From a virus, in IMG/VR virus record IMGVR_UViG_3300033066_000693, positions 128,001-192,000 of that record: a DNA stretch of 64,000 nucleotides; one strand, 5' to 3'. The notes under the pieces were generated by a model. That model was given only the letters and a program-made list of their open reading frames with translations, did no database searches and was not told where the DNA came from. Of this stretch, positions 23,503-59,861 are shown piece by piece (positions within the stretch are counted from its first letter, which is position 1; every line of letters starts with the position of its first letter). Position numbers and translations under genes: made by a program.

Positions 23503-24693
23503 TTATCTCTCGTGGTTCAGATTGACATTATAAGTCCAAGTAATGCCTATCTTAGGATGTATTCCGAACAGCTTTTGTTCGGCAATGTTACCCGGCATAG
23601 CATTGCTAAGGGAGTACACATCTCCGCCTACAAAGCATCCGTTCATAAGTATTCGACCATTGTGCGTCGTAAACTCAGAGCAGTTATGAAAATGGCCGCA
23701 AAGCGTATAGTTTGGAATCTGCTTTGTTAGACCAGTCATCTTTCGCTCAAGATCCAAGAAAGAAGTAACCGGAGGATTCTTGCCCTTTACGTCGTCTCCG
23801 TGAACCATCAAGAACTTATGGTTCTGTACCTCCTTGATCATCCACCAACTCTTCTCGATGTTGAACTTGATACGAGGTTGCTCTCTAAACTCAAGCTCAA
23901 GATACTTGTAGCAGAACAAGTCAAAGTTGTTGTACTTCTTCTCTGCGCCGGTCGGGGCAATGCGACCATGATTGCCATACAAACCATAGAACTCAACCTC
24001 GTCAAACAAGGTTAGCATGTAGTAGATGAAGTCGGCAATAGCTCGATAGCCGATCATAACTTGATCGAATACAGGCGTTCCAATGTAGACGGCTGACCAT
24101 GCGCCTGCGGTATTCGCTCCTTCAACTATGTCTCCTAGAGAGAAGATATGGAGCTTTGGAATCTTGTACAGCTTAGAGTGAAGCTCTTTGATATCAGTAA
24201 TGGCCTTCTTCAGATTTTCCATGCGCTGAAGAAAGATATCAATGTTGTACTCTGATAGTCCGCCTGTTTCTTCAAGCGTATGCTCATGCCCAACATGAAG
24301 GTCGCTAAAGATTAGCCCCATGTCTTCGGCTGTACGATGAGAAGAAACTGTCGGCGTATAAACCGGAGGCGGAGCAATAGGAAGCTTTCGAGCGGCTTCA
24401 TAAAGCTTGTCTGCTATGATGTCCGCTTGCAAACGGTACTTATCTAGAGACTTCCCGATGCTAACTTCATGCTTGAGAAGACCCTGAGTAATGGTGGCTT
24501 GGCGATTCTCTTTGGCTTCCTCGTCATGGAAGTCAAAGTCTTCCCAGTTTGTATCTTTGTTGTACTTCGTCTCGCAAGCAGCATAGCTGCGATTGAGCAT
24601 GGAGGCTATAACCTTGTAAGGCGTCCCCTTCTGTCTCTCGGTATAAAGTAGTTCTAGCTCTTCGTTTGTCCACTTCCTATCACAGCTTGACAT
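23503..24693 (-). CDS. calcineurin-like metallophosphoesterase (Mre11/SbcD-like nuclease) with N-terminal Myb/SANT-like segment
   Basis: The phosphoesterase motifs occur in order: SDLHVGH (D.H), GDIVEG (GD), GNHG (GNH), MVHGDD and CGHFHN (GH.H). The N-terminus KWTNEELELLYTERQKGTPYKVIASML is Myb-like. Confidence 0.75.
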   Translation of the reverse strand: MSSCDRKWTNEELELLYTERQKGTPYKVIASMLNRSYAACETKYNKDTNWEDFDFHDEEAKENRQATITQGLLKHEVSIGKSLDKYRLQADIIADKLYEAARKLPIAPPPVYTPTVSSHRTAEDMGLIFSDLHVGHEHTLEETGGLSEYNIDIFLQRMENLKKAITDIKELHSKLYKIPKLHIFSLGDIVEGANTAGAWSAVYIGTPVFDQVMIGYRAIADFIYYMLTLFDEVEFYGLYGNHGRIAPTGAEKKYNNFDLFCYKYLELEFREQPRIKFNIEKSWWMIKEVQNHKFLMVHGDDVKGKNPPVTSFLDLERKMTGLTKQIPNYTLCGHFHNCSEFTTHNGRILMNGCFVGGDVYSLSNAMPGNIAEQKLFGIHPKIGITWTYNVNLNHER

Positions 24694-25417
24694 TCTTAAT
24701 CCTTTGCAAAAATGCGGCCAAGACTGTATTGTAGGAAGACAACTGCTTGAGTTTGTTCCGACGAGTCATGCCGTTTGGGTTTACTCTGTACTTTATTAGG
24801 TAGTCTTGAAGATTGTGAAACTTCTTTCCTTCAAGGATAGCTCGACACCAGAAGTCAAAATCATGGGCTGAGTCAACGCTAGGGTTCTGCGTATAACCGC
24901 CCAATTGTTTGTAGTCTGCTACTCTAAACATCGACGTAGGATTGATAATCGGACACTTGCGATAAATCGCCAACATCGTCACGATTTCTTTGTGATCTGA
25001 TGGCGGGAAATCCCAATCTCCAATAAAATCGCCATGAACGCCTATCTTCTTTGCTCTGCCGCCCACGCAAAATACATCTGCATGTGAATCTAGATAGGCC
25101 GCTTGAGCCTCTAACCTATTCGACATGCTTATGTCGTCGCCGTCATGGATGGCAATATACTCTCCACGGGCTAGTTCGATAGCCTCTTTGGATCGAGCGC
25201 TCACTCCTCGATTTTCGCTCGAATCAATGTACCTAAACCGCTCATCATTAGCTTCTGTATGTAACGCTCGTATAATCTTTCCAGTATCGTCGGTTGAACC
25301 ATCGTTGATCACGATAAGCTCAAGGTCTTTATAGCTCTGATTGAGAATAGAACGAATAGACTCTTCTATGAAGTCTTGGCAGTTATAGGCAGGAGTTATA
25401 ACGGTTATCTTAGGCAT
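24680..25417 (-). CDS. family-2 glycosyltransferase (GT-A fold)
   Basis: PKITVITPAYNCQDFIEESIRSILNQSYKDLELIVINDGSTDDT is a canonical GT2 N-terminus. DGDD/DxD-like motifs are present. Confidence 0.85.
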   Translation of the reverse strand: MPKITVITPAYNCQDFIEESIRSILNQSYKDLELIVINDGSTDDTGKIIRALHTEANDERFRYIDSSENRGVSARSKEAIELARGEYIAIHDGDDISMSNRLEAQAAYLDSHADVFCVGGRAKKIGVHGDFIGDWDFPPSDHKEIVTMLAIYRKCPIINPTSMFRVADYKQLGGYTQNPSVDSAHDFDFWCRAILEGKKFHNLQDYLIKYRVNPNGMTRRNKLKQLSSYNTVLAAFLQRIKNVKL

Positions 25418-26537
25418 TCAAGAAAAAATCTCTGTATTGCATCTTAACTTTCGACCAATTGTATTCTTCTTCAACCTGAGTTCTTCCATCTATGCCCAAT
25501 CGCTTCCCTAGATCTTCATTGGTCAACAGAGTTGCTATATGCTCCTGAAAAGTCTTTGACACTTTTTCGTCAAACTTTAGAAGCTCGCCTTTTCCTTGAT
25601 GGGCCTCAACGCAATATCCGCCTCTAAGCTCTGGAACGTGCCCGACATTTAGAGCTACCCAAGGCTTTCTGGCCGCCATTGCCTCAAGAAGAACTATGGG
25701 TCCGCATTCGGTTTGCGATGGGAACACAAAGGCGTCTGCCCCAAAGTAGGACTGAACAACTAGCTCTCTAGGGGCGTCCTTTACAAAGACAACAGGCAAG
25801 TGCATTCGCTGGCAGTTATTCCTAATCATTTCCTGTAAACGATTGCCGGGAATAAAAGCCAATGTAGAAGAAACAAATACAAGAGTTACGTCATGCTCAG
25901 CGCTGATATTCTTTATGATCGGAAGAAGATACTCTTGCCCTTTTCCCGGAAAGAAGTTGGCCACGCACAGTATCATCTTGCTTGTAGTAACTCCAAGCCT
26001 CAGTCTAATCTCTTGAGGCTCAGGTCTAGGCTTATCAAACTCTACTAGATCAATAGCGTTGTGAATGATAGATACTGGGATTCCCCATTCTCTACAAACA
26101 CGAGCGTCTATGTATTTGTCTGCATGCGCCAACACTTTGAAGTGCTGGTGCTTTCGCCTAAAGACTTCGGTTACTGCCGCATTTCTCTCAAGGGAGGATC
26201 TCATGCGGTTCATGCCAACCAATCCAATACTCTTCTTGCCGGGAATTTTCTCTACATGATTGAGAATCAAGTCCCAACGGAAAAACCAATCGCTATAAAC
26301 AAAGACATGATCGGCTTGTTCTGAGACAAGTCTTCCCAAGAAGTCTCCCTCCGAGAGCTTTCCTACAGGACAGACTCGAACTCCGTTATAAACTGTTTCA
26401 TTAGAACCATGCTGACAGAAGACTACGCACTCCATGCCATAGTCTTTGGTCATGGATTCTGTTATCTGCTGTATAACTCTTTCTGCCCCGCCGGTATGAA
26501 AGGGTTGCGCAAAGTTGGTACAAACCGCTAACTTCAT
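25410..26537 (-). CDS. family-4 glycosyltransferase (GT-B fold)
   Basis: The GT4 C-terminal signature VFPSQTECGPIVLLEAMAARKPWVA (E...E/EAMA.G.PVV) is present. The likely start is the MKLAVCTNF Met at 26537, immediately after the upstream stop. The track start at 26597 would overlap the upstream gene by 64 nt. Confidence 0.85.
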   Translation of the reverse strand: MKLAVCTNFAQPFHTGGAERVIQQITESMTKDYGMECVVFCQHGSNETVYNGVRVCPVGKLSEGDFLGRLVSEQADHVFVYSDWFFRWDLILNHVEKIPGKKSIGLVGMNRMRSSLERNAAVTEVFRRKHQHFKVLAHADKYIDARVCREWGIPVSIIHNAIDLVEFDKPRPEPQEIRLRLGVTTSKMILCVANFFPGKGQEYLLPIIKNISAEHDVTLVFVSSTLAFIPGNRLQEMIRNNCQRMHLPVVFVKDAPRELVVQSYFGADAFVFPSQTECGPIVLLEAMAARKPWVALNVGHVPELRGGYCVEAHQGKGELLKFDEKVSKTFQEHIATLLTNEDLGKRLGIDGRTQVEEEYNWSKVKMQYRDFFLNA

Positions 26538-27277
26538 AGAGAAATGATAACTGGATGAGCCGCTTGTTTCATGGGAGGGAATGATTGCCCATCCCACTTC
26601 TTCCTAAACTTGTCATAGCTTTGACGGAAGATTTCCATACGGTCTTTATTCTTGCCTAGAGTCTGGTGCGGCATATGTATGACTTTCGCCTCATGATTCC
26701 ACCCTATCTTGAGTCCAGCTTTTCGAGCGCGAAAGTTAAAATCAGGATCTTCGAAGTATGCTGGATTGAACTGTTCGTCAAACATCCCAATCGTGTCAAC
26801 AACCTTCTTTTTCATCATCATGCCGCCACAGCCGACATAGGTAAACGGCTCGCCGCTTCTTTTACAGTTGTGTCTTGGCATAAAGGCGGAATCCATAAGC
26901 CATGCGTCCGCTCCTACTAGATCATAGTCGCCAGCCGCCAAGAATGCTAAATACTGATGCATCCAATGCTTTTGGACAAACTGATCATTATCCAAAAAGA
27001 ACAAGTAGTCTGTAGGATTACTCTGATACAGAGTAAAACCCATATTCCTACCGCCTATAACTCCTAGATTCTCTTGGTTGAGAACCAGAGTGGTGTTTTT
27101 GGATTCCAAGAAAAGAGCATCTTCCAGATACTCTTTTGTCCCGTCAGTTGAACCATTATCAATCATGATAAGGTTGAACTCGGACGAAGTGTTTTCGTAC
27201 AAACACTCAAGAAACTTCTTGGTGACTTCCTTGCCATTATATGACAGTACAACAATCGTTGCTGTAGGACTACTCAT
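26534..27277 (-). CDS. family-2 glycosyltransferase
   Basis: ATIVVLSYNGKEVTKKFLECLYENTSSEFNLIMIDNGSTDGT is a GT2 N-terminus and an FEDPDF DxD-like motif is present. Confidence 0.85.
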   Translation of the reverse strand: MSSPTATIVVLSYNGKEVTKKFLECLYENTSSEFNLIMIDNGSTDGTKEYLEDALFLESKNTTLVLNQENLGVIGGRNMGFTLYQSNPTDYLFFLDNDQFVQKHWMHQYLAFLAAGDYDLVGADAWLMDSAFMPRHNCKRSGEPFTYVGCGGMMMKKKVVDTIGMFDEQFNPAYFEDPDFNFRARKAGLKIGWNHEAKVIHMPHQTLGKNKDRMEIFRQSYDKFRKKWDGQSFPPMKQAAHPVIISL

Positions 27278-27278
27278 T

Positions 27279-30200
27279 TCAGCTTATCGTCACGATATTG
27301 CTCTGAACAGCGACTCCCACGCTAAGGCCATCGAAGGGGACTACTTCAGCTTTCCACTGTTCGCCAGACGACGTATTAATCGCTGACACTATTCTCTGAT
27401 TCTGCAAAGCCGCAACCTCTGCAAACTCCATAGAGTTTCGAGGTGCCCGTAGCCATCGAATCGAGCTTTGGTCATTCTGAGTTGAACCTTGCTGTTGAGA
27501 ATCTACGTCTACATAAGTATACGAAAGCTGCAAAGACGACGATGACGGAGCGCTAGGATTAGGAGAGACTATGACGTTTCTAACAGTTGGAGGGTCATTC
27601 TCAACTGAGACTGCGGCGCTAGTAATCGGATTGCCAATGATGTTTTGAGAAGCAGGAAGGATGGTTACTTCCAATACATTTCCTATGGCAATAGCAATAA
27701 CATTGTTTCGTATTTCGCCAGTCAAAATCTCATTGTTAGAGAAACCGCCGACTACCGCATTCAAATCTCCTCGCTTGAACTCTCGTCCATTGACATACCA
27801 AACTATTTGAGACTTGGCCGAGCTATTCCCGTCTTGGAAATAATCAAAGTCGGCAAACGCTCTAGTAGCAGTCGTAAGCTTATCCTGAACCGATCCGTCG
27901 TTCTTCTTGCCCTTGATAGCAAGTCTCGACACAAACGGAGGAGCTTCGCTAATGGTAATAGACGGAGAGCGGACTACTTGACTGAACAACGTTCCGTCGC
28001 TAGCCCTTACAGTTACATATAGTACGTCATTGACTTTGAGAATACTTTCTTGTCTCTGTCTAGCAAACTCTTCTATGCTTGTTCCCGCTGTTACATCCGT
28101 AGGCTTGAAAGTAAAGGCATAAATCCAAATCGGATCAGTAAAGTCCTGAATGTTATTCCATGTTCTTAGATTACGCAGATACTCAATTTCAACTCCATTG
28201 ATATACCAACGAATCTCGCTCTTGGTTGTATCTTCATCCTTCTGATTGAGATCAATATAAGTATAAGTCAACCCCATAGTCTGATAGATTGTAACAAGCG
28301 ATGGATTGATTCTAAGACTATTGACTACCGGAGGACGAGCAGACAATGGCGGCGGCAAGAATACATTGGTGTTGTACATATAACCTAGGCCGTCGATGGC
28401 AACCGAGTTCTGAGAGTCCATATTTAGAACTCGAACGCCAAGCTTAAGTCTTCCAGCGTTTTCGACAGAGATAAACAGAGGCCCTATCTGTCGGCTACCA
28501 AAGACAATCACGCCTTCTTGCGGATATGCTTGATAAAGGGATGGGTCTAGTATGGTTTCCTCGCTGTCTGTTATAACTACAGCAGACGTATTATCCCATC
28601 TACCATACTTGGCTTTCCACATGTATCCGTCAATATTTTCTAAAGGCTCATTAAGAGTCTTGTCTTCAGTCTGCGAATAACGGATAGGGATGAATACCTT
28701 ACCGAACCTGTCAGAAGGAGGTTGAGCATTACTCTTGTAGTCCGACCAGTTGTAAGATCTGCTAGTTGTTGCTCCTACTTCTATCTGACTTAGAAGAGGC
28801 TGATTAGCAGAAACAGCAACAGATATTTGTTGAGGACTATAAGACAGCGTATCAGGATTCAGGTAAATGAAGCTTTCTGTTGGTAGGCTATAAGTGATGT
28901 AGATAGCCGCCAATGCCGGAACTCCCGGAGTTGGTATAAGATCATATTCGCTTGTTATCGAGGCGCTCAGCCCTGTAAGCAAAGTTACTTGGAATCGCAA
29001 ATAACGGGCGCTGACCTTGCTAAACTCAACTTGAGTATTCGACTTGAATGAATCGCTATAGTCTGAGTAGTTAACGCCGTCGTCGCTAGTAGCGAGCTTC
29101 CAGCTACCTTCGGTATTGTCAAATAACTCATACTCCAACAATATGTCATTGATGATACTTGATTTATCCAAATCAATTACGCATTGATAGAGTCCCCATC
29201 CAACCGAGCCTGCAACTCTTCCAAGAGAGTTGTTTACAACTTCGTCTACGAATGTTGCGTCTAGAACGGTCTGGCTCTGCCCTCCTGTTGCGAGCGATAT
29301 TCGGTCCAAACTATCAGTATCAGTTCTCGCTACCAAGGCAGAAAGCGTTACCGGGAAAACAACCGAGAAGTTGTTCATAATGACTGGAACCTTGCCAAAG
29401 CCGTCAATCGCCTGAACTTCTTCTATAGTGCTATCAAGAGTATTGACAGAAAGATTTTCTTCGTTGTCCGTATTTACATAGATGACTTTTGCATAGATAT
29501 CCAAAGAATCGTCAAGCATAAGAGACGCATTCTTGATGATTGCGTCATAGAGCGGTGAAGCTCCGAATGGGATCTCTCCGCTAAGCCTATTGAGATACTT
29601 AACAACCGTTTCGTATCCGTCATTGTTGACATGGACGATTATCTGCGGTATCCATTCGATATCGCTAAAATATGCTATCTCCGGGCTATCTAACTGAGGA
29701 GTTTGCGGTGGGCTAAGATCAAATACAGGATTGCTAGATTGCTTCAATCCTTGATCAATAGTTTGATTATTCTCGCTGTCTCGTCCGGGTTGCTGAGTCG
29801 TATTCTGACTTGCGGGAACCGATTGGCTTCCTTCAACGCTTCGGCATCCTTCAAAGTGTACTCCTGACCCTGTAGAGCCAGACGAGCTTCCAGAAGAGCC
29901 AGACGAGCTTCCAGAAGAAGTTGAATCAGTAGAAGTAGGAGTCACGATTGGAGTCGTATCGCTCTGATTGTCCTTGACATCCAAAACGGTTTGACCATAG
30001 AAGAAGTCGTCTATAACAGTAATGCGAACTCTGATCTTGTATGGGTTCCTTATGTCTCCCTCTTTGATCTTAAGCGTCTTGTCTGCTTCGGTTCCCTCTC
30101 CGGTCACTCTATCTTCTATTCCTAGCTTCCTCTTGATTTCAGATATCTTGCGCAGAATATCGTCAGAACGAGGCAGCATAATAGTCGAACCAACGCCATT

Positions 30201-33200
30201 TTGAATGTAGAAATCGTTAGAACTGAAGACAACAGGATAAACCAAAGCGTCTCTTAGAGCTTGGTCAGAAGCCTGCTGTTGGCTCTGGTCGCCGCCAGAC
30301 ACAGAATCAATCTGCGCATTAGGGAATAGTAATATTCCTTGAACAAGAACTCGAACAGATTGCGTTGGATGCTCTCCTACGTCATTGACAAGCTCAATAA
30401 CAACCGTAGTTGATTGCTGTCCATCCAAGCGTATTGACTGAGGATTCGCTCTTGCTTGAATCTGCAAGAATCCTTCTGGGCGTCCGCTTGTCAGTCCTCC
30501 CGCTGTATACAAGTATCTCCATTGGTCGCTAGATGTTCCAAAAGCAGTCTTAGCAACAGGAAGCTTGGTCAACACATCCAGATCATAGATTGGCGTGCCT
30601 TCTGCGATTTGTTCTACGGCATTAAGGACTTGAGACTTGCTGCTTGTACCGCCAAGGAAGTAATGATGATCAACTATAGAAGCATATCCGCCTCTGTAAC
30701 GAGGAGCCGGGATATCTCCATAGATAAAATCATCTTGCGACAAATCAAGAGAAGACAAAGATATCTTTATGGTATCTGTGACAAAATCTAGAGGCTGAGA
30801 ACCGTCATCATTACGAACGCCCGGTATCGCTCCACCCAAGATTCTAAGGGATAGCTGATTTGCGTCTGCAAACAAGAATGGAGAGATTCTGCTATAAAGC
30901 GTAAGCTCTGTTCCAGTGAACGCATCGCTGTATGTCCAAGTATGAGTATCTAGATCGAATACTAGAACCCTATCGTTCAATGCGTCAATACCGCCGCTTT
31001 CTCCAATCTTACGAATGCCGCAAACAATGTAAGCCTTGTTGTTTATACGACAGCATGCTCCAAGAGCTACCCCATATGGATTCTGATCAAACATAGGCAT
31101 AGACGGCATGGTTTCCCAAGTATCTGTAATCGTATTGTAACGCTCAACAGATTGCGTTATAGCCAATGATGTTCCGTCCGCTACTATGCCGCCAAAGACG
31201 TATATGTAGTTTGCGTCTTGAATAGACATATGATAGAATCTTGGAGTAGGCATTGCCTTCTTAGGAGTCCAAGTGTCTGTTGCAAAATCATACATCTCAT
31301 TGTATGCAAGAATGGATTTCCCATTCAATCCGCCTATAGCAAACAACTGCTCGCTGTATGCGTCGAAGGTCCAGTTGAGAGTAAGGCATCCTCTTGGATG
31401 AGCCATACCAGTCTTTTTGGTCCATGTATCAGTATATGTATCATACACATGGAGGTCGGCGCTAAAGACATTGTTGATTTGTCCTTGAGGGTCTTCAGTT
31501 TCGACATCATTATTTGGCTGAGACGGATCGTACTTAATTTCAACGCAAGCGGTCATGCTACGAAGAACATCGCCTCTCTTATCGTAGTTCGTCTCCGCCT
31601 GAACCTGCGCCTCGAAAGCTGATTCTGGACCAAATGGAGCAACAAAGAAAGAGGCATAACTCTTCTCTGGTCCATTAGGATTTAGCAATCTGTCATTAAC
31701 TTTGTTAGTATAGATTGTGTCATTCTGAAGGATTATCTTTTCAGGATTATTGCCGCCGATTGTCAAGAAAACAGGGGTTCCATTAGGTACTGCCTTGTCC
31801 TTGAAACTTACTTCTAGAACAAACTCATGGATGGCAACGCCATTGCATAGAATCTTTTCTACGCTTTCTCCGTTGCGACGGATATCTACCACAGAAATAG
31901 ACAATGGCTCTCTAAGCTCAATGGTAGTAGGAGGAACTCCGTTTCGAAGATCTCCGCCTCCGTTCAAGTATCTTGTTTGTCCATTGAATATAACAGAGGT
32001 TCGGCCTCGAACCGTTTTCAGATTGTTCTTTGCAAGAAGACCCGGAGGGATTTCAATGCAGGAACAGAGATTAGCACTTTGCGCTGGATCGTCATTCTGA
32101 TTGTTGTTTGTAGCTGTCTGCGGCTTACCTATGAACTTGTTGATACGAAGATAGAAGGTCGTGCTGCTACCGCTCTGCGCCAATGGGATTTGAGCAAAGG
32201 CTACATTCTGAGTAGCTTCTGTTATTACATACTCGTCTAGGTTTTCGTCATACGTTACTTGAAGATTGTCGCCATAAAGAATCTCAAACTCTTCTCCCGG
32301 TTCAATATCAATAAGCTGCCCATTGTCCAAGGTGAATATTGGCATGTTGGCGGCAGTAGCGCATTGTATGAAACAGTCGGCAAGCTGACCGCCAGAAATC
32401 GTAGGATCATGATAGATTTTTACTCTGGCAAGGTCATAGCCGTCTGCAACCAAAGTATTTACATACTGAGGCATCTCCATAAGAAAACGAGAACCAAACC
32501 CTCTTACGTCGCCGGGCGGGTAGATAATAGCTGGCCTTTCTTCAAAGGCATGAAGCCCGTCATAAACGACAGAGGCCTTAATAGCGTAAAGCTCTGGAAG
32601 AAGAATGACATTGCCGGGACATGGAATATAGGTTTCCCATGTAACTCCGCATGCAGGACCAAAGAAAATCTTCCTAGAGTGTCCGCTACGAGTATAAGAG
32701 AATACCCCCGGTCCTGACGGAACATTGTCAGTAGAATAGAATGGCCTATCTTTGGCGTTTCTTCCTTTTCGAAGATCCCAACGCACTATTTGCTGTCCAA
32801 CTATAGGAACCTTAATTGGTTCTTCTACATTTGGGCTATCTGGATCTATAAGGTAGATATTTGCCTGTTGTTCAGAAATATCAATGCAATTGGATTCTGG
32901 GGCCTCAATGGTCGTCTCAACTCGAAGTATGTTATCAAAGACAACGTACATCTTCTTGCGAGCAAAATATCCATTGAACAGAGTCTTGGCAAACAGCATA
33001 ATCGCTTGAGGAGAACGAGGAGCCTTAAGCGGTATATCTGCATATGAAACTTGTCTAGTCGTTCCGTCCGTAAGACGCTGCGTGCCAGTTCTTAGAGGTA
33101 TAGAAGTGGCAGGAGGCTGAACGCTTCGACTTCTTCTGCCAGAGAAGCTAGGAATAAACTCTGGCGGAGCGGAATCGCCACCGCCGCCAGACTGGGAACA

Positions 33201-36200
33201 TGGATTAGACGGGTTTTGGTCTTTATCGCATTGAGGGTCATTGGCTTCAAAGACCGCTGCATTGCAGCTAGACCCAACAGGAAGAGCGCCTCCTCTATAC
33301 GAAACAACGACTCTGCCTACGAATGGGCGAGTACGACGAATCCAGCATCCCGGGAATTCTTTGAACTTATCCGGATCAAAGAATGCCCCTCCGCTTGAGA
33401 TAAACTCCTGATCGTCTAGAGGAACTGTTTGCTTACAAAGAACCTTTACAGTATCGCCTGACGTACTATTGGCCGCTGTCGGCTCAACCGTACTTGAACC
33501 ATGACCTCTACGCCTCTTGCTCTTCTTAGTAAGTCCATTCTGAGTGGCGTCTCCAAAGTATGAGGTATTATCTCCAATATTGAGCAACTGCATAGAGAAA
33601 GGATTGAACGTCTCAATATGGAGAGGGAGCGAAGTAAACTCGAATACATTAGTATCAGGATTGTCCCTGTCTGGGATATTGTAAGAGACGGTGATATCGG
33701 CGGTGAGAGAGTTAATCGCAGAAAGCGTATCTGGGTCTGTTGTCATGCGGAATACGCCTCTAAGGAAACCATTTCCAATAGAGGTTGACGACAGAACGAA
33801 ACAGTTCTGAGCTTCTGGTGTAGAAGTCGTAGTATTAATGACTTCGCCAAATACGTCTTCTGCCAACTGCGCAGACTGAACAGACGCCTTAGCGGTAAAT
33901 GATATATTGCTAGCATCCGCTATTGGAGCGCCTAGTTCGTCTGTTATTTGCGCGAAAAGAGCAATACGCTGGTCGAACCAGCCCTGAATATCTCGCTGGA
34001 ACTTAACCGGAGCTTCCCAAGCCAAGCTTATAGCATTCTCATTTACAAGCTCGTATCTAAATGAACCAACCTCAAGAAGAGGGAATGTCGATTCGTCAGC
34101 CGTTGTTTGAGGAATAGAAGAAACATAGGCTGGTTCAGACAAGTTTCCGTAACGGTCTGCAAATAGCACCGCGTAATAACTAGTTGATTCATTTTCTATG
34201 TTGCGATCAACGAAGCTTGTATCTGAAGGGTTGCCAGAAAAGACAAGAATAGCTGAAGAATCTATGCCTTGATCATTGTTTACGATGGGATAGCTTGTGT
34301 CGGACCAGTAAACTAGGACTTGATGAACGTCAGTATCTATAGGCAAATCCCAAGTCAAATAATTCTTGTTATTGCCCGGCAAGGCCTGTACATTTGTGGG
34401 CTTTGAAACCATAGGAGTCGTAATCGCCGCATTACGTGCGTCCTTGCTGCTAAATACAGGGATAGGAATTGACAAGACTGGCGAATCTGAAGCAAGGCTG
34501 TAGTTGCCTAGAGTGTTCTGGGAATAGATTCTGAAATGATAGGTACGCCCATGTACATAGTCATAAGGCAGAACTACAGAAAAGCTTCCGGGTTCGGCGT
34601 CAGCTTGGAATACTATGTCTCCATCATTTTCATGAGACGGAGGCGTTCCAAATCCTTTGAATGTTAGCTGCGGAGAACCGCCATTAGGAGGCGTTACATA
34701 CTCAAACTTTGCGGTTCCTATGTCTTGCTTTCGAACAATCCTAATCTGTCCGCCAGCATAGTTGAAATCGTCAGCAACAACATACTTGATAGCAACAATA
34801 CGATCTCCATTGTCCAAGACTTTATCCGTCGTCAATACTGGGAAGTATGCTTCGCTAAGTATGTAGCTTGCAGAACGAATAGAGTTATGAATGCTGACTT
34901 CGCTTATCTTGCCAAAGAAAGATCCTGTCTTTCCTCCCAAGTAAATGTTCATAGGCTGCGGGCTATATGCTCCCAATAGCGTTATGCTACCAGACCCGGC
35001 CAAGTGTCCATTGATATAGAAACTAGCAGAAAGCGTTTCGGTATCTACAGTTACAGCAACGTGATTCCATTCATTTGCCGTCAGAGTTCCGCTAGAAACG
35101 GCAATAACCGCCTCGTCCATAGTGAACGTAAGCTTGCCATTAGTGTTTGTTCCAAATCTGAAACTTAGCTTGTTTTGGTTTGTAAGTTCTCTAGAAACAA
35201 TCGTCCTATTGGCATTGAAATCAAATGGATATATCCATGCCATGAACGTGTATTTGGTCGCAATGAACTTGCCGGACTCGTCATACCCAACAAGTCTCGT
35301 ATCATGTCCGTTGAAACGGATTCCGCTGATTCCAGTAGGAACATCAAAAGAGTTAAGCCATACAAGATCGTCTGTATCCGAACTTAGATTTAGGGGATTG
35401 TTGCTAAAATCGTATCCCATGAATCCAGTAGACTCATTGAGATGCCAAATGCCAATGGTGTTTGCGTCTCTTCTAACGCCCGTGCCAGCAATGATTCTGT
35501 ATGTAAATCCTCCAACTCCTCTTGGGATTACCTTTACAGCAGGAGTCGCAGAAAGCAGAGTTCCTTCGCTAAATATTCCAGCCGAGTTGAAGGTATAAGC
35601 GCCATAGTAATATGGCTGGCTCTCCAACAGATCGTCATCAAAAGCTCGCTCTATGAATCCTTCTGTAACAATCTCTCCGTCTAGAGGTCCGGTTGGGAAT
35701 GAACCCTTCTTGCGAATGATTCGAACGCCTGCATATCCGCTTTCTTGGTCGGCAAAGAAATCGCTTGCCACTTCGCTTGTATCATTAGTATTTACTTGGT
35801 CGGTTTCAACCACAGCGAAGAAGTTAATCTTGATAGGAGTTGAACCCAAGCTCAAAAGATTATAACGAACAGTGCCGGGATAAGTCGCCTGCAAACGGTC
35901 AATCATGCGGCGAGTAACTTCGTGGCGAAGTCCTCCGCTATCATTCCATGTCATAGAACCGCTTTGGTCCATAACAACTGAAACTAGCCTGTCAGGAAGA
36001 CTCAACTCGACTTTCTCGGTATCTGCTTCATTAGGAACAGCCTTGGTATTGATAAAGACTGGCTCTATGCTTTCAGTTGAAAAGATCTTTGTGGTCTTAG
36101 TAACTAGAGCAGAAGCAGGGACTACAATCTTACAAGCAGTCTCGTCTATGGCGTCTCTGAACGAATACAAACGGAGAGCATACCTATTGACACAATCCAG

Positions 36201-37019
36201 TTCCCAAATTTGAGAGTTGCTATTGTAGACCAAAGAACAGCTAGAGAAGTATGGGTCCAAAAGCTCATTTGTAGAGTCTGCATAGTCCCACATAAAGTAA
36301 AGGCTATCGCTACCGCCAGAGGACAGCAAGGCTGTAGCGTAATGGGCTGTAAAGTTGATTGAGGAATGGCCCGGGAGAGGGCCAAGAACGAAGTTATACC
36401 AGTTGTCATCAACGATTTCTTCAATCGAAGTCTTGTAGCCATAAATAGGCAAAGGAGCGTCTGGCGTAAAGTTGTCGTCTACTTCATACATCTTGAAATG
36501 CAAAGTAAGGAAACGACTTTGATATTCTACAGTTGTTGGTGAAAATTCCTGAGTAGTTATGTGTAAAGAGTCTATGCAGCAGTTCTTTGTCTTTGGAATA
36601 ATAGAAAGACTAAACTGGCGACCGTCTACAGCAACAAAGGTTGTTGAAATCCAGATCCACTGATTCGAAGGAACCGAAGCGATTACGTCATTAACCGATA
36701 TCCCATTGATCAATAAAGCAAATGAGAAAGTATCCTCAGCCTTGACTCTTAGAAAGAGCGTATACTTTCCGGCTGTTTCGCAAACAATTGGATAAGTAAG
36801 CGTAGGCCAACTATTGCCAGAAGAAGAGCCAATAGACATATAGCCATTGCCATAATAGCCGCTACCAGTTATCTCAAAAACAGCAGACGGATTTCCCTGT
36901 TCCAACTCTGAAAAGTTGGATGCGTCAAAAGAAACAGAACCGCCATCGCTCACGGTAAAAAATGGCGAACTCGTCTGGCCTACAACTCTAAGGAAAACTG
37001 AAGCTTTTGTAAGTATCAT
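27279..37019 (-). CDS. giant (3246 aa) multidomain virion/adhesin-like protein: vWA-like MIDAS segment, FN3, LamG/ConA-like lectin domain, Kelch beta-propeller, Gly/Ser-rich linker, C-terminal Ig-like tandem repeats
   Basis: ATG at 37017-37019. The MIDAS motif DQSGSM is at about aa 351. The LamG-like segment WIYPFDFNANRT...EWNHVAVTVD...FYINGHLAG spans roughly aa 520-700. Kelch motifs (YVFGG...VERYN..TDTWE) map to about 30.6-31.46 kb. The linker STDSTSSGSSSGSSGSSSGSTGSG lies at about 29.88 kb. Three C-terminal repeats of roughly 115 aa carry the core IRWYINGVEI. Confidence 0.8.
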   Translation of the reverse strand: MILTKASVFLRVVGQTSSPFFTVSDGGSVSFDASNFSELEQGNPSAVFEITGSGYYGNGYMSIGSSSGNSWPTLTYPIVCETAGKYTLFLRVKAEDTFSFALLINGISVNDVIASVPSNQWIWISTTFVAVDGRQFSLSIIPKTKNCCIDSLHITTQEFSPTTVEYQSRFLTLHFKMYEVDDNFTPDAPLPIYGYKTSIEEIVDDNWYNFVLGPLPGHSSINFTAHYATALLSSGGSDSLYFMWDYADSTNELLDPYFSSCSLVYNSNSQIWELDCVNRYALRLYSFRDAIDETACKIVVPASALVTKTTKIFSTESIEPVFINTKAVPNEADTEKVELSLPDRLVSVVMDQSGSMTWNDSGGLRHEVTRRMIDRLQATYPGTVRYNLLSLGSTPIKINFFAVVETDQVNTNDTSEVASDFFADQESGYAGVRIIRKKGSFPTGPLDGEIVTEGFIERAFDDDLLESQPYYYGAYTFNSAGIFSEGTLLSATPAVKVIPRGVGGFTYRIIAGTGVRRDANTIGIWHLNESTGFMGYDFSNNPLNLSSDTDDLVWLNSFDVPTGISGIRFNGHDTRLVGYDESGKFIATKYTFMAWIYPFDFNANRTIVSRELTNQNKLSFRFGTNTNGKLTFTMDEAVIAVSSGTLTANEWNHVAVTVDTETLSASFYINGHLAGSGSITLLGAYSPQPMNIYLGGKTGSFFGKISEVSIHNSIRSASYILSEAYFPVLTTDKVLDNGDRIVAIKYVVADDFNYAGGQIRIVRKQDIGTAKFEYVTPPNGGSPQLTFKGFGTPPSHENDGDIVFQADAEPGSFSVVLPYDYVHGRTYHFRIYSQNTLGNYSLASDSPVLSIPIPVFSSKDARNAAITTPMVSKPTNVQALPGNNKNYLTWDLPIDTDVHQVLVYWSDTSYPIVNNDQGIDSSAILVFSGNPSDTSFVDRNIENESTSYYAVLFADRYGNLSEPAYVSSIPQTTADESTFPLLEVGSFRYELVNENAISLAWEAPVKFQRDIQGWFDQRIALFAQITDELGAPIADASNISFTAKASVQSAQLAEDVFGEVINTTTSTPEAQNCFVLSSTSIGNGFLRGVFRMTTDPDTLSAINSLTADITVSYNIPDRDNPDTNVFEFTSLPLHIETFNPFSMQLLNIGDNTSYFGDATQNGLTKKSKRRRGHGSSTVEPTAANSTSGDTVKVLCKQTVPLDDQEFISSGGAFFDPDKFKEFPGCWIRRTRPFVGRVVVSYRGGALPVGSSCNAAVFEANDPQCDKDQNPSNPCSQSGGGGDSAPPEFIPSFSGRRSRSVQPPATSIPLRTGTQRLTDGTTRQVSYADIPLKAPRSPQAIMLFAKTLFNGYFARKKMYVVFDNILRVETTIEAPESNCIDISEQQANIYLIDPDSPNVEEPIKVPIVGQQIVRWDLRKGRNAKDRPFYSTDNVPSGPGVFSYTRSGHSRKIFFGPACGVTWETYIPCPGNVILLPELYAIKASVVYDGLHAFEERPAIIYPPGDVRGFGSRFLMEMPQYVNTLVADGYDLARVKIYHDPTISGGQLADCFIQCATAANMPIFTLDNGQLIDIEPGEEFEILYGDNLQVTYDENLDEYVITEATQNVAFAQIPLAQSGSSTTFYLRINKFIGKPQTATNNNQNDDPAQSANLCSCIEIPPGLLAKNNLKTVRGRTSVIFNGQTRYLNGGGDLRNGVPPTTIELREPLSISVVDIRRNGESVEKILCNGVAIHEFVLEVSFKDKAVPNGTPVFLTIGGNNPEKIILQNDTIYTNKVNDRLLNPNGPEKSYASFFVAPFGPESAFEAQVQAETNYDKRGDVLRSMTACVEIKYDPSQPNNDVETEDPQGQINNVFSADLHVYDTYTDTWTKKTGMAHPRGCLTLNWTFDAYSEQLFAIGGLNGKSILAYNEMYDFATDTWTPKKAMPTPRFYHMSIQDANYIYVFGGIVADGTSLAITQSVERYNTITDTWETMPSMPMFDQNPYGVALGACCRINNKAYIVCGIRKIGESGGIDALNDRVLVFDLDTHTWTYSDAFTGTELTLYSRISPFLFADANQLSLRILGGAIPGVRNDDGSQPLDFVTDTIKISLSSLDLSQDDFIYGDIPAPRYRGGYASIVDHHYFLGGTSSKSQVLNAVEQIAEGTPIYDLDVLTKLPVAKTAFGTSSDQWRYLYTAGGLTSGRPEGFLQIQARANPQSIRLDGQQSTTVVIELVNDVGEHPTQSVRVLVQGILLFPNAQIDSVSGGDQSQQQASDQALRDALVYPVVFSSNDFYIQNGVGSTIMLPRSDDILRKISEIKRKLGIEDRVTGEGTEADKTLKIKEGDIRNPYKIRVRITVIDDFFYGQTVLDVKDNQSDTTPIVTPTSTDSTSSGSSSGSSGSSSGSTGSGVHFEGCRSVEGSQSVPASQNTTQQPGRDSENNQTIDQGLKQSSNPVFDLSPPQTPQLDSPEIAYFSDIEWIPQIIVHVNNDGYETVVKYLNRLSGEIPFGASPLYDAIIKNASLMLDDSLDIYAKVIYVNTDNEENLSVNTLDSTIEEVQAIDGFGKVPVIMNNFSVVFPVTLSALVARTDTDSLDRISLATGGQSQTVLDATFVDEVVNNSLGRVAGSVGWGLYQCVIDLDKSSIINDILLEYELFDNTEGSWKLATSDDGVNYSDYSDSFKSNTQVEFSKVSARYLRFQVTLLTGLSASITSEYDLIPTPGVPALAAIYITYSLPTESFIYLNPDTLSYSPQQISVAVSANQPLLSQIEVGATTSRSYNWSDYKSNAQPPSDRFGKVFIPIRYSQTEDKTLNEPLENIDGYMWKAKYGRWDNTSAVVITDSEETILDPSLYQAYPQEGVIVFGSRQIGPLFISVENAGRLKLGVRVLNMDSQNSVAIDGLGYMYNTNVFLPPPLSARPPVVNSLRINPSLVTIYQTMGLTYTYIDLNQKDEDTTKSEIRWYINGVEIEYLRNLRTWNNIQDFTDPIWIYAFTFKPTDVTAGTSIEEFARQRQESILKVNDVLYVTVRASDGTLFSQVVRSPSITISEAPPFVSRLAIKGKKNDGSVQDKLTTATRAFADFDYFQDGNSSAKSQIVWYVNGREFKRGDLNAVVGGFSNNEILTGEIRNNVIAIAIGNVLEVTILPASQNIIGNPITSAAVSVENDPPTVRNVIVSPNPSAPSSSSLQLSYTYVDVDSQQQGSTQNDQSSIRWLRAPRNSMEFAEVAALQNQRIVSAINTSSGEQWKAEVVPFDGLSVGVAVQSNIVTIS

Positions 37020-41376: not shown

Positions 41377-41379
41377 TTC

Positions 41380-54222: not shown

Positions 54223-55290
54223 TTATATCCTAACGGAAGACTTGAAAAGCTTTAGAGAACCATTCTCAACGGCGGTGATAGAATCTTCAGAAAAAACATT
54301 CTTCTTGACAAACTTGATTTCGTCTGGACTACCGAAGTCCCTCCTGACTTGCCACATCGTTCTATCGCCCTTGAATAAAGCTCCGTCATTCCGTCCTGCA
54401 TAGAAGTTCTTTCCATTACTTAGTACAGAGGTTACACCCAACGCAGTTGGGTCATCAAAGGCAAAGCAATTATCGACTACTTCCTTATAAAGAAGAGATT
54501 GATCAATAGCATGCTCAACACCAAGATTAATTACCTTCCCAATAACAGAAGTATCAGGAATAAACTGATTCAGAAACACAAGCTCATCAATAAGTCCTGC
54601 ATTGTTTCTTAACAATGAGCCATACCCAATTGCTGACTGGTTGAGATTGAAATGAACCAAGGCTGAGTTATTCAACGCCAGCGGGATAGGGAAACCGTCC
54701 TCGGAAAACAAGCCTATAGGAGAGCCGTTTACAAATACAAGAAAGCTTCTGCTAGGACCATAGTACGTAATCCAAAAATGGTTGAACTGATATGTCTTAT
54801 AGATATCAGTTTCCAAAACTATCTGAAGACCTGTAACCGACTGTAGCATGATCTTCATTATATTGAAGCCGTCTTCCTTGCATTCTTCATATATACTGAA
54901 AGTAGCTTCAATGGCGCTAATAAAGCCAGTGGCGCTTGCGTAAGCATAGCTAGCCTTGTCCATAAGAGCCATACGATAATAGACGGGAAGATTTGTAACA
55001 GGACTGATTGTAGGAGGAATCCAAGAAGACCTCAGCCAAAACCCTATGCTGAACTGAACTGGGCTGCTAAGGAACAGCGGAACAGACAAAGAAGACTTTG
55101 GCCTCATGCGAAGTCCATTTCCTAAAACTGCCTTTTCTAGGAAAGCCGGATTCTCATTGGTAATAAGTACGTTCTGTCCGCTCAGTTCTTCTATAACTGG
55201 CAGCGACTCAAACTTTAGAAAGAACTTAGCGTTTGAGTTTATTACGCTCTTATATGAGGCTAGATTGATATTTAGGGAGACTTCTTCCAT
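54223..55290 (-). CDS. hypothetical structural protein
   Basis: 355-aa ORF in the structural block, tightly packed against its neighbours. Confidence 0.55.
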   Translation of the reverse strand: MEEVSLNINLASYKSVINSNAKFFLKFESLPVIEELSGQNVLITNENPAFLEKAVLGNGLRMRPKSSLSVPLFLSSPVQFSIGFWLRSSWIPPTISPVTNLPVYYRMALMDKASYAYASATGFISAIEATFSIYEECKEDGFNIMKIMLQSVTGLQIVLETDIYKTYQFNHFWITYYGPSRSFLVFVNGSPIGLFSEDGFPIPLALNNSALVHFNLNQSAIGYGSLLRNNAGLIDELVFLNQFIPDTSVIGKVINLGVEHAIDQSLLYKEVVDNCFAFDDPTALGVTSVLSNGKNFYAGRNDGALFKGDRTMWQVRRDFGSPDEIKFVKKNVFSEDSITAVENGSLKLFKSSVRI

Positions 55291-55291
55291 T

Positions 55292-59852: not shown

Positions 59853-59861
59853 AGTTATTCC

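What the first reader, a model, noticed from the sequence alone, without database searches (positions are those of the whole stretch)
24680..27277. GT2-GT4-GT2 glycosyltransferase trio transcribed directly after the giant structural genes
Three glycosyltransferases follow the 3246-aa protein in the same transcriptional direction, with 8-nt and 3-nt junctions. The neighbouring giant proteins carry long Ser/Thr/Gly-rich linkers, which are potential O-glycosylation sites. This may be a virion-protein glycosylation module. Alternatively it could modify host cell-surface polysaccharide, that is, perform serotype conversion.
Basis: inference. Interest (0 to 1): 0.55.

Follow-up and report, generated by a model that had tools for sequence, protein, structure and literature searches.

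The report
Conserved glycosyltransferase trio in huge-phage tail module
Three ordinary-looking, soluble sugar-transferring enzymes sit directly behind a 3,246-residue tail-region protein in an uncultured 258-kb marine phage, are conserved across its whole clade, and most likely put sugars on the phage's own giant proteins, though no glycan has been observed.

Summary
Three tandem minus-strand genes encode GT2 (26534-27277), GT4 (25410-26537; the real start is an ATG, not the upstream GTG) and GT2 (24680-25417). Junctions are a 1-nt gap, a 4-nt overlap, an 8-nt overlap and a 14-nt overlap. All three enzymes are soluble and keep their catalytic motifs.

The trio is not a variable add-on. In 28/28 related huge-phage loci (170-500 kb contigs) with upstream sequence, GT2a directly follows the giant LamG/Kelch protein. 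GT4 is present in 27/29 loci and GT2b in 25/29.

Further glycosyltransferases lie among the tail genes. A second GT4 sits between two other giant proteins about 37 kb upstream. In a relative, a probable GT-B sits beside the tail-tube gene.

GT2a's nearest relatives outside the clade are GT2-GT4 fusion proteins. They lie one or two genes after the major capsid gene in eight loci, within methyltransferase/GT clusters. This mirrors mycobacteriophage Corndog, whose glycosyltransferases modify its virions.

No Gtr-type membrane parts, thymidylate-synthase-like, TET/JBP or C5-methyltransferase genes were found. The Ser/Thr-linker argument fails: there is one linker and it is not conserved.

Best reading: virion (giant tail protein) glycosylation, confidence about 0.5. 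Host-glycan and DNA glycosylation remain possible.

The parts
26534..27277 (-). GT2a: 247-aa soluble GT-A (family 2) glycosyltransferase, the universal member of the trio
   Evidence: PF00535 E 1.8e-19. AF2 model has pLDDT 93.5. Foldseek gives generic GT-A matches, with TM up to 0.73 to ppGalNAc-T2. D96xD98, E176-D177-x-D179 and H201/H204 are invariant in 34 homologues. No TM segment. At least 316 homologues at 45-72% identity, many on 170-500 kb contigs.
25410..26537 (-). GT4: 375-aa soluble glycosyltransferase with a PF00534 (GT4) C-terminal domain. ATG start at 26537 overlaps the GT2a stop (ATGA).
   Evidence: PF00534 E 1.1e-16 and PF13692. G16-G17-x-E19, K199 and E277-x7-E285 are conserved at 90% or more in 27 orthologues. 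Closest PDB sequences are GlgM, BshA, PimB and MshA. Present in 27/29 clade loci. The fold was not modelled.
24680..25417 (-). GT2b: 245-aa soluble family-2 glycosyltransferase of EpsE/TuaG/K4CP type. It overlaps GT4 by 8 nt and the exonuclease gene by 14 nt.
   Evidence: PF00535 E 7e-33. NCBIfam EpsE E 8.5e-42, below cut-off. PDB chondroitin polymerase E 8e-23. D39, D92xD94D95 and D186 are conserved in 25 orthologues. Present in 25/29 clade loci.
27279..37019 (-). 3246-aa giant protein (LamG/ConA-like plus Kelch beta-propeller), the gene that always immediately precedes GT2a. Candidate glycosylation substrate.
   Evidence: PF13385 E 6.7e-19 and Kelch families. PDB matches are Kelch only. An orthologue lies directly upstream of GT2a in all 28 clade loci with upstream sequence. 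One non-conserved S/T-rich stretch at residues 2349-2391.
37027..54218 (-). Three further giant ORFs (1449, 1524 and 2754 aa) with fn3/Ig-like domains, part of the same uninterrupted array
   Evidence: No PHROG or PDB homologues. 'Structural' status rests on synteny with the tail-tube gene in a relative.
54223..64000 (-). Mid-sized ORFs (355, 471, 522, 526 and 394 aa; Ig-like/DUF1573) and the C-terminal 939 codons of a 2383-aa DUF642 protein. That gene, and the second GT4 (GT4', 365 aa) before it, run beyond the window end.
   Evidence: L046 shows 1180-aa protein, then GT4' (PF00534), then the 2383-aa DUF642 protein, then the 394-aa protein and onward. GT4' is conserved at 46-70% in 9 clade contigs.
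23503..24693 (-). Downstream neighbour: Mre11/SbcD-like exonuclease, first gene of the DNA-replication/methylation block (context, not part of the module)
   Evidence: phrog_284 E 1.5e-41. Missing after GT2b in 6 of 29 clade loci, whereas the giant-to-GT2a adjacency never breaks.

Best explanation
The trio is a phage-encoded cytoplasmic glycan-assembly line. It has two inverting GT-A enzymes (GT2a, GT2b) and one GT4-family enzyme (retaining by family assignment). Together with at least one more GT4 embedded in the tail-gene array, it most likely uses host nucleotide-sugars to attach and extend a short oligosaccharide on the phage's own giant tail-associated proteins before or during virion assembly.

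Shown: the identity, solubility and intact catalytic motifs of the enzymes; clade-wide conservation; fixed position behind the LamG/Kelch giant; placement of further GTs among tail genes; and a sister GT family beside capsid genes in other phages.

Inferred: that the acceptor is a virion protein, which protein it is, the sugars used, and the order of action. GT2a as the universal and possibly initiating enzyme is a guess.
For: 1. Core-gene behaviour. GT2a is present in all 29 related IMG/VR loci (34-72% identity). It is about as conserved as the exonuclease and helicase, and more conserved than the giant.
2. In all 28 loci with upstream sequence, GT2a directly follows the giant's orthologue. 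The downstream exonuclease is absent in 6 loci, so the stable linkage is to the giant.
3. Other GTs are scattered through the same tail-gene array. GT4' lies between a 1180-aa and a 2383-aa protein. In a relative, a probable GT-B lies two genes before a Phage_tube_2 tail-tube gene, which is followed by a 1146-aa tape-measure candidate and then the giants.
4. Fusion ('Rosetta stone') evidence. Outside the clade, the GT2a-like domain is fused to a GT4 domain (615-650 aa), or to GT9 plus GT4 (914-947 aa).
5. These fusion genes lie one or two genes after the major capsid gene in 8 loci with two unrelated capsid families. They are followed by methyltransferases and more GTs.
6. The same layout is seen in mycobacteriophage Corndog: portal, O-methyltransferase, three GTs, protease, capsid. 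Its GTs are reported to glycosylate capsid and tail tube (Freeman et al. 2023, as cited in PMC11600133 and PMC12363180).
7. No TM segments. No ThyS/TET/C5-methyltransferase was found in the window or the flanks examined.
Against: - No glycan has been observed, and the phage is uncultured.
- The giants have no detectable homology to any known virion protein. Their structural role rests on gene order only.
- The S/T-rich stretch is not conserved, and the tail-tube protein of a relative lacks the S/T-rich C-terminal tail that I recall (own knowledge) as the acceptor in mycobacteriophages.
- GT2b and GT4 resemble enzymes (EpsE, TuaG, BshA, PimB) that act on lipid-linked or small-molecule acceptors.
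- The trio also abuts the DNA-replication block and overlaps the exonuclease gene by 14 nt.
- Homology to the characterised Corndog GTs is not demonstrable (hhalign probability 19%).
- The whole region is syntenic across the clade, so adjacency alone is weak evidence.
- The outgroup loci are a small sample chosen by motif search.
Confidence: 0.5

Rival explanations
1. Host envelope glycan remodelling. The soluble GTs act at the inner face of the host membrane on lipid-linked O-antigen, capsule or teichoic-type intermediates during infection. This would alter the cell surface, for example to block superinfection or to stop progeny adsorbing to debris. It is a non-Gtr mechanism like staphylococcal prophage TarP.
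For: GT2b's best named relatives are EpsE and TuaG, and its best PDB match is K4 chondroitin polymerase. GT2a matches rhamnosyl/galactofuranosyl-transferase-type models. TarP, RmlT and WrtF are among the fold and sequence hits. PHROGs files all three under 'moron/host takeover'. Iyer et al. 2021 interpret GT clusters in jumbo cyanophages this way. Peripheral-membrane GTs need no TM segment.
Against: Surface-modification GT sets in phages are described as sporadic and polymorphic. This trio is a fixed, clade-wide core set with 34-72% identity. Extra GTs lie inside the tail-gene array. No flippase, polymerase, GtrA/GtrC or nucleotide-sugar genes were seen. The sister family sits beside capsid genes.
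Confidence: 0.2
2. DNA sugar hypermodification. The three GTs build a mono- to trisaccharide on a hydroxymethylated pyrimidine in phage DNA to evade restriction, as in the GT-A/GT-B clusters described by Pyle et al.
For: The trio directly precedes, and is translationally coupled to, an exonuclease-helicase-methyltransferase-primase-polymerase block. Pyle et al. show sequential phage GT-A and GT-B enzymes, structurally like TarP and LPS enzymes, making up to trisaccharides on 5hmC. They also report that such clusters can neighbour helicases, methyltransferases and even structural genes.
Against: The defining partner enzymes were not found: no thymidylate-synthase-like hydroxymethylase, no TET/JBP dioxygenase and no C5-cytosine methyltransferase. 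This covers the 64-kb window, about 17 kb of flanks and the +/-10 kb Pfam tables of two relatives. All four window DNA methyltransferases, and a fifth in the flank, are N6A/N4C types, implying ordinary bases protected by methylation. GT4' and the probable GT-B lie deep in the tail module. Only about a third of the genome could be inspected.
Confidence: 0.1
3. Synthesis of a free glycoconjugate or small-molecule glycoside (glycolipid, thiol such as a bacillithiol-like compound, storage or exopolysaccharide) that supports infection metabolically. On this reading the position next to tail genes is historical accident.
For: GT4's closest solved relatives are small-molecule or lipid GTs (GlgM, BshA, MshA, PimB). 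The whole 60-kb region is collinear in the clade, so position may carry no functional meaning.
Against: No accompanying biosynthetic genes were seen. Several GTs recur next to virion genes in unrelated phage groups. GT2-GT4 fusions adjacent to capsid genes are hard to explain this way.
Confidence: 0.1

Closest known systems
Mycobacteriophage virion glycosylation (Corndog gp35-38; Che8 gp110; Freeman et al. 2023, read only through PMC11600133 and PMC12363180)
   Same: Several tandem phage-encoded soluble GTs embedded in a virion-morphogenesis gene block. Corndog has portal, O-methyltransferase, three GTs, protease and capsid in that order. The GTs are conserved within phage clusters. GT2a and Corndog gp37 align weakly across the region that includes the FDEQF...YFEDPD-type motif.
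   Different: No demonstrable sequence homology (phmmer found nothing for GT2a, GT2b or GT4; hhalign probability 19%). Here the GTs sit in the tail/giant-protein module, not the head module. The host is marine and unknown, not an actinobacterium. The S/T-rich C-terminal acceptor tail was not seen on the tube protein. Glycosylation is unproven here.
Uncultured mid-sized phages with a capsid-adjacent GT2-GT4 fusion cluster (L037, L040, L042, L043, L058, L059; L036, L041), found here
   Same: Their GT2 domain is the nearest relative of GT2a outside the clade (26-39% identity; phmmer E 4e-18 to 6e-33). The GT-B half weakly matches GT4. L038/L039 combine GT2b-like, GT2a-like and GT4-like modules.
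   Different: The domains are fused into one polypeptide. The genes lie after the major capsid gene. They are accompanied by methyltransferases and 2-4 further GTs. These clusters are themselves uncharacterised.
Giant-virus glycosylation machineries (chlorovirus PBCV-1 capsid glycans; mimivirus fibril glycans). Own knowledge, plus PDB and BFVD hits.
   Same: Virus-encoded cytoplasmic GT-A/GT-B enzymes are thought to decorate the virus's own surface proteins independently of host secretory pathways. GT4' weakly hits PBCV-1 B736L. Many giant-virus GT2 domains are among the fold matches.
   Different: Those are eukaryotic viruses that also encode nucleotide-sugar pathways. None were found here.
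Phage DNA sugar-hypermodification clusters (Pyle et al., bioRxiv 10.1101/2023.12.21.572611)
   Same: Sequential GT-A and GT-B enzymes in phages, structurally akin to TarP/LPS enzymes, sometimes near helicase, methyltransferase and structural genes.
   Different: Those clusters are defined by a neighbouring ThyS-type hydroxymethylase, or a C5-MT plus 5mYOX. None was found here.
Gtr serotype-conversion system (GtrA/GtrB/GtrC)
   Same: GT2b matches the N-terminal catalytic half of the GtrB-like PHROG (phrog_841, E 2.2e-12).
   Different: The match covers profile positions 2-117 of 309 only. There is no C-terminal membrane anchor, no GtrA/GtrC was seen, and the set is not an accessory lysogeny module.

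Membership tests
CAZy GT2 / Pfam PF00535 (GT2a and GT2b) | Score above Pfam gathering threshold for Glycos_transf_2 | tested here: met
   GT2a 70.7 bits and GT2b 114.4 bits against a cut-off of 23.3
CAZy GT2 / Pfam PF00535 (GT2a and GT2b) | GT-A fold with conserved DxD metal/nucleotide-sugar motif | tested here: met
   GT2a AF2 model has pLDDT 93.5 and matches GT-A structures at E 1e-12. D96xD98 is invariant in 34 sequences. GT2b D92xD94D95 is conserved in 25 sequences. The GT2b fold itself was not modelled.
CAZy GT4 / Pfam PF00534 (GT4) | Score above gathering threshold for Glycos_transf_1 | tested here: met
   61.3 bits against a cut-off of 26.4
CAZy GT4 / Pfam PF00534 (GT4) | E-x7-E motif and N-terminal GGxE / central K typical of retaining GT4 enzymes (motif knowledge is my own) | tested here: met
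   E277-x7-E285, G16-G17-x-E19 and K199 are conserved at 90% or more in 27 orthologues
CAZy GT4 / Pfam PF00534 (GT4) | GT-B two-Rossmann fold | not tested
   No structure was predicted for GT4. The N-terminal Glyco_transf_4 hit is weak (E 0.0078).
Gtr-type serotype conversion (GtrA/GtrB/GtrC) | GtrB has a GT2 domain plus C-terminal transmembrane helices | tested here: not met
   Maximum 19-residue Kyte-Doolittle hydropathy is 0.82-1.28 in the three GTs. The phrog_841 match covers only profile positions 2-117 of 309.
Gtr-type serotype conversion (GtrA/GtrB/GtrC) | Adjacent GtrA flippase and GtrC membrane transferase | tested here: not met
   No such families among the window ORFs scanned. The neighbours are a giant protein and an exonuclease. 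ORFs under about 90 aa were not scanned.
Mycobacteriophage virion-glycosylation GTs (Corndog gp36-38 / Che8 gp110) | Sequence homology to the characterised enzymes | tested here: inconclusive
   phmmer of Corndog gp35-38 against GT2a/GT4/GT2b/GT4' gave no hit. hhalign of the GT2a family against gp37 gave probability 19%, E 1.3e-3. tblastn hit summaries do not list Mycobacterium phages.
Mycobacteriophage virion-glycosylation GTs (Corndog gp36-38 / Che8 gp110) | GT genes embedded in the virion-morphogenesis gene block | tested here: met
   The trio follows the giant tail-region protein. GT4' lies between giants. A probable GT-B lies next to the tail-tube gene in a relative. Corndog layout.
Mycobacteriophage virion-glycosylation GTs (Corndog gp36-38 / Che8 gp110) | S/T-rich C-terminal acceptor extensions on capsid and tail-tube subunits (own knowledge of Freeman et al. 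2023) | tested here: inconclusive
   The tail-tube protein of relative L057 has no S/T-rich C-terminus. The capsid protein of this clade was not located.
Mycobacteriophage virion-glycosylation GTs (Corndog gp36-38 / Che8 gp110) | Glycans detected on virion proteins | not testable with these tools
   Needs virions and mass spectrometry
Phage DNA sugar-hypermodification gene clusters (Pyle et al.) | Neighbouring ThyS-type hydroxymethylase, or C5-cytosine methyltransferase plus 5mYOX (TET/JBP) dioxygenase | tested here: not met
   None in the Pfam scans of window ORFs. None in the precomputed Pfam tables of L002, L003, L005, L045 and L046. All MTases are PF02086 or PF01555. About two thirds of the genome was not inspected.
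Phage DNA sugar-hypermodification gene clusters (Pyle et al.) | Glycosylated base present in virion DNA | not testable with these tools
   Needs nucleoside LC-MS or native-read signal analysis

The most novel reading that the evidence does not exclude
A cosmopolitan clade of marine and aquatic huge phages (170-500 kb, DnaE-type polymerase) carries a conserved multi-enzyme glycosylation system: the GT2a-GT4-GT2b trio, GT4', and a probable fifth GT by the tail-tube gene. The system would be dedicated to coating megadalton tail or fibre proteins with phage-made glycans. This would be, as far as I found, the first virion-glycosylation system outside actinobacteriophages and the first aimed at giant tail proteins. 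It would also link to a second, previously undescribed group of phages with capsid-adjacent GT2-GT4 fusion clusters.
Probability: 0.4. Interest if true: 0.7.

Novelty: new variant of a known kind. Interest (0 to 1): 0.5.

Why it matters
Phage virion glycosylation has been shown experimentally only in a few mycobacteriophages, where it changes antibody recognition. If abundant marine huge phages glycosylate their giant tail proteins with their own enzymes, three things follow. Virion glycans would be a widespread, ancient phage trait. They would help explain what the enigmatic 1,000-3,000-residue proteins of huge phages are for (adhesion, protease protection or host mimicry). GT2a would become a simple marker gene: more than 300 homologues at 45-72% identity. 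The capsid-adjacent GT2-GT4 fusion clusters found on the way give a second, smaller and more tractable system in which to test the idea. If the trio instead modifies DNA or host glycans, it is a routine example of known phage strategies.

Tried and rejected
- DNA similarity to cultured phages: none (blastn). tblastn of GT2a and GT2b found only distant hits (23-34% identity), mostly unannotated fragments.
- Identity with 'moraphages' (PMC12619734): rejected. Those use PolB and reach 307 kb at most. This clade has a split DnaE and contigs up to 500 kb. That paper also reports four core GT groups and leaves their role open.
- Sigma-70 promoter and intrinsic terminator scans around the trio in the window, L007 and L032: counts at or near shuffle expectation, so no usable transcription boundary.
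- Isoelectric points of the GTs as a proxy for DNA binding: uninformative (medians 7.3-8.1 with wide ranges).
- S/T-rich linkers as conserved acceptor sites: rejected.
- Genes inserted inside the trio in relatives: HNH-like, DUF4238 and unknowns. No sugar-pathway genes.
- L028's MptE/Maf-like protein replacing GT4 and GT2b: Pfam score just above cut-off but no PDB support. Kept only as a weak hint.
- Reverse test (do giant orthologues ever occur without GT2a?): the C-terminal alignment was too divergent to seed a collection scan.
- Homology of the giants and the mid-sized neighbours to known virion proteins: none (PHROGs; PDB; tblastn).
- GT4' as a recent duplicate of GT4: rejected, no BLAST similarity.
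- The Freeman et al. 2023 paper itself is not held in the library, so it is cited second-hand.

Full report
**What is there.** All large ORFs of the window lie on the minus strand. Directly after the 3246-aa ORF (27279-37019) come three ORFs. All three score above Pfam's curated thresholds:
- 26534-27277 (247 aa): PF00535 Glycos_transf_2, E 1.8e-19.
- 25410-26597: PF00534 Glycos_transf_1 (the CAZy GT4 family), E 1.1e-16.
- 24680-25417 (245 aa): PF00535, E 7e-33.

PHROGs and NCBIfam agree, but no equivalog cut-off is reached. I call the three genes GT2a, GT4 and GT2b.

The middle gene most likely starts at the ATG at 26537 (375 aa), because the 374-aa orthologue in a related contig starts at the equivalent ATG. 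Read from the sequence, the junctions are:
- giant stop, one base, GT2a ATG;
- GT2a/GT4: ATGA overlap (4 nt);
- GT4/GT2b: 8-nt overlap;
- GT2b/next gene: 14-nt overlap.

The statement about 'long Ser/Thr/Gly-rich linkers' is only weakly true. One 43-residue stretch exists (G3246 residues 2349-2391). The other giants have none.

**The enzymes.**
- None has a membrane segment. The maximum 19-residue hydropathy is 0.82-1.28.
- GT2a was modelled with an alignment of 34 homologues (pLDDT 93.5). It is a plain GT-A domain.
- Foldseek finds hundreds of GT2-type structures at E about 1e-12. Examples are a Leptospira GT, WrtF, SpsA, RmlT and TarP. The highest TM-score (0.73) is to the catalytic domain of polypeptide GalNAc-transferase 2.
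- Viral-structure hits are equally generic.
- Catalytic residues are conserved across the clade. GT2a keeps D96xD98 and E176-D177-x-D179. GT4 keeps G16-G17-x-E19, K199 and E277-x7-E285. GT2b keeps D92xD94D95.
- By family assignment the set is two inverting GT-A enzymes and one retaining GT4-family enzyme. That is enough to build a short hetero-oligosaccharide.
- The closest named relatives act on lipid-linked, polymeric or small-molecule acceptors. For GT2b these are EpsE, TuaG and K4 chondroitin polymerase. For GT4 they are GlgM, BshA, PimB and MshA. Homology therefore does not identify the acceptor.

**The genome.**
- The window has no nucleotide match in cultured phages.
- Downstream of the trio lies a replication block:
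  - an Mre11-like exonuclease and a helicase;
  - an IF3 homologue;
  - an intein-containing AAA ATPase;
  - DnaB and a primase;
  - a DnaE-type polymerase split into two ORFs;
  - four DNA methyltransferases, all of N6A/N4C type.
- GT2a itself is 100% identical to a protein on a 257,887-bp contig. It has at least 316 homologues at 45-72% identity, many on 170-500 kb contigs from Tara Oceans and other aquatic samples.
- This is an uncultured huge-phage clade, probably within the DnaE-bearing 'PGC_A' of Weinheimer and Aylward. It is not the PolB-bearing 'moraphages'.

**Conservation and linkage.** A motif-seeded scan of IMG/VR returned 29 clade loci. I called and labelled their ORFs with the window's proteins.
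- The order giant, GT2a, GT4, GT2b, exonuclease, 348-aa protein, helicase, D12 methyltransferase, IF3, AAA is kept throughout.
- GT2a is present in 29/29 loci, GT4 in 27/29 and GT2b in 25/29.
- In all 28 loci with upstream sequence, GT2a directly follows the giant's orthologue.
- The exonuclease is missing after GT2b in six loci.
- GT2a (34-72% identity) is about as conserved as the exonuclease and helicase. It is better conserved than the giant (25-66%).
- Genes occasionally inserted inside the trio are HNH-like, DUF4238 or unknown, not sugar-pathway genes.
- One locus replaces GT4 and GT2b with an MptE/Maf-like protein. This is not corroborated by PDB.
- The S/T-rich stretch of the giant recurs in only about 3 of 27 orthologues. 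It cannot be the reason the trio is conserved.

**More glycosyltransferases in the same gene array.**
- Extending beyond the window end shows that the ORF cut at 63885 is the C-terminus of a 2383-aa DUF642 protein.
- Immediately before it lies another GT4-family gene (GT4', 365 aa, PF00534), itself preceded by a 1180-aa protein.
- GT4' is conserved at 46-70% in nine clade contigs at the same place. It is not a recent copy of GT4.
- Further upstream in a relative, the order is: a 385-aa probable GT-B, a 154-aa protein, a Phage_tube_2 tail-tube protein, three small proteins, a 1146-aa tape-measure candidate, then proteins of 1291, 1194 and 1180 aa, GT4', and the DUF642 giant.
- The 385-aa protein has only a faint PF00534 hit and a BshA match at E 1.6e-4.
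- This is the canonical order of a tail module. It is the only evidence I found that the 'giant structural genes' are structural. They have no PHROG, PDB or cultured-phage homologues beyond LamG, Kelch, fn3 and Ig-like domains.

Up to five GT genes are therefore interleaved with tail-module genes over roughly 70 kb (estimated).

**The sister family.**
- The most distant matches of the GT2a scan are proteins of 615-650 aa, in which a GT2a-like domain is fused to a GT4 domain. Others are proteins of 914-947 aa with an additional GT9 domain.
- The fusion argues that GT2a-type and GT4-type enzymes work in one pathway.
- In L037, L040, L042 and L043, and in two further contigs retrieved through the protein database (L058, L059), the order is:
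  - portal (with a MuF domain);
  - a protein of about 415 aa;
  - the major capsid protein (PF05065);
  - in some loci, a small ORF;
  - the GT2-GT4 fusion;
  - methyltransferases and two to four more GTs.
- In L036 and L041 a different capsid family (PF13252) is followed, one gene later, by the triple fusion.
- L060 starts at a contig edge and is uninformative.
- L038 and L039 place a GT2b-like gene (E about 1e-20) and a GT2a-GT4 fusion next to a tail-fibre-like protein and RCC1 propeller proteins.
- This layout parallels mycobacteriophage Corndog: portal gp34, O-methyltransferase gp35, GTs gp36-38, protease gp39, capsid gp41. Its GTs are reported to glycosylate capsid and tail-tube subunits (Freeman et al. 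2023, read through PMC11600133 and PMC12363180).
- Direct homology to the Corndog enzymes is not demonstrable. The relationship is one of organisation, not family membership.

**Weighing the explanations.**

*Virion-protein glycosylation (about 0.5).* This fits the most observations:
- clade-wide core status;
- unbroken linkage to the giant protein;
- dispersal of further GTs among tail genes;
- GT2-GT4 fusions beside capsid genes elsewhere;
- absence of membrane or DNA-modification partners.

It remains an inference. No glycan has been seen and the acceptor is unknown. The S/T-linker argument fails. The tube protein of a relative lacks an S/T-rich tail.

*Host-glycan remodelling without Gtr parts (about 0.2).* This is compatible with the enzymes' closest relatives, and with how GT clusters in jumbo cyanophages have been read. 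Those clusters are described as sporadic and polymorphic, unlike this one.

*DNA glycosylation (about 0.1).* This deserves mention because Pyle et al. showed that sequential phage GT-A/GT-B enzymes build up to trisaccharides on 5hmC, and that such clusters can sit by helicases, methyltransferases and structural genes. The defining partners are missing here. These are a ThyS-type hydroxymethylase, or a C5-MT plus a TET/JBP dioxygenase. They are absent from the window, from about 17 kb of flanks and from the neighbourhoods of two relatives. The phage instead carries at least five amino-methyltransferases. Roughly two thirds of the genome could not be inspected.

*A free glycoconjugate product (about 0.1).* This cannot be excluded.

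**Verdict.** The Gtr-type alternative is not supported. The enzymes are ordinary members of GT2 and GT4. What is unusual is their fixed, multi-copy embedding in the tail/giant-protein module of a widespread huge-phage clade, together with the discovery of a capsid-adjacent GT2-GT4 fusion family as their nearest relatives. I rate it a new variant of a known kind (phage self-glycosylation), interest 0.5.

Noticed in passing
window 2306-7987 (-): The DnaE-type DNA polymerase III alpha is split into two ORFs: 6500-7987 (N-terminal part) and 2306-4291 (C-terminal part). Both match phrog_405. About 2.2 kb separates them, carrying a D12 adenine methyltransferase (5107-5997), a 173-aa ORF and a 201-aa ORF annotated by PHROGs as 'histidyl tRNA synthetase'-like.
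   Followed up: partly
window 14896-17895 (-): A 999-aa AAA+ ATPase is interrupted by an intein (PF14890 between two AAA halves). Orthologues in L002 and L005 also carry it. Helicase orthologues vary from about 510 to 1426 aa among relatives, suggesting inteins there too; this was not checked.
   Followed up: no
window 17861-18391 (-): Phage-encoded translation initiation factor IF3 homologue with both IF3_N and IF3_C domains. It is conserved in most clade loci.
   Followed up: no
window 5107-5997, 10148-11008, 11005-11778, 19329-20426 (-); L045 12853-13752: Four DNA methyltransferases in the window and a fifth just outside it. All are N6-adenine/N4-cytosine types (PF02086 twice, PF01555 three times). 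None is a C5 type.
   Followed up: partly
L046 1743-2840 (just beyond window position 64000); L047-L055: A fourth glycosyltransferase (GT4', 365 aa, PF00534) is wedged between a 1180-aa protein and the 2383-aa DUF642 giant. It is conserved at 46-70% in nine clade contigs and is unrelated in sequence to the trio's GT4.
   Followed up: yes
L057 1916-4757: In a relative, a 385-aa probable GT-B protein lies two genes upstream of the tail-tube gene (PF18906). It has a faint PF00534 hit and a BshA-like C-terminal motif with the first Glu replaced.
   Followed up: partly
L037, L040, L042, L043, L058, L059; L036, L041: A group of uncultured mid-sized phages (contigs of about 6-77 kb) encodes GT2-GT4, or GT9-GT2-GT4, fusion proteins. 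The fusion gene follows the major capsid gene, directly or after one or two small ORFs, and is followed by methyltransferases and further GTs. This is a likely capsid-glycosylation cluster.
   Followed up: partly
L028 10615-11445: One clade member lacks GT4 and GT2b. It carries instead a 276-aa MptE/Maf-like (PF01973) protein, of the family that includes flagellin nonulosonic-acid transferases. Pfam E 3.7e-9, just above cut-off, with no PDB support.
   Followed up: partly
L002/L003 11875-12579: The public gene call places a 234-aa gene on the reverse strand. A 283-aa GT2b orthologue (39% identity) is in fact encoded on the forward strand there. This is probably a gene-calling error in the source annotation.
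   Followed up: partly
L027 10963-13264; L031 11134-11871; L005 10729-11901: In some relatives, unrelated genes are inserted between GT2a and GT4: DUF4238, an HNH-like protein and a 390-aa protein with no Pfam hit. The trio therefore tolerates insertions without being lost.
   Followed up: partly
L002 1-205: In the 498-kb relative, the large protein upstream of the LamG/Kelch giant carries a Glyco_hydro_56 (hyaluronidase-like) Pfam hit. This hints at glycan-degrading activity in the giant-protein array.
   Followed up: no
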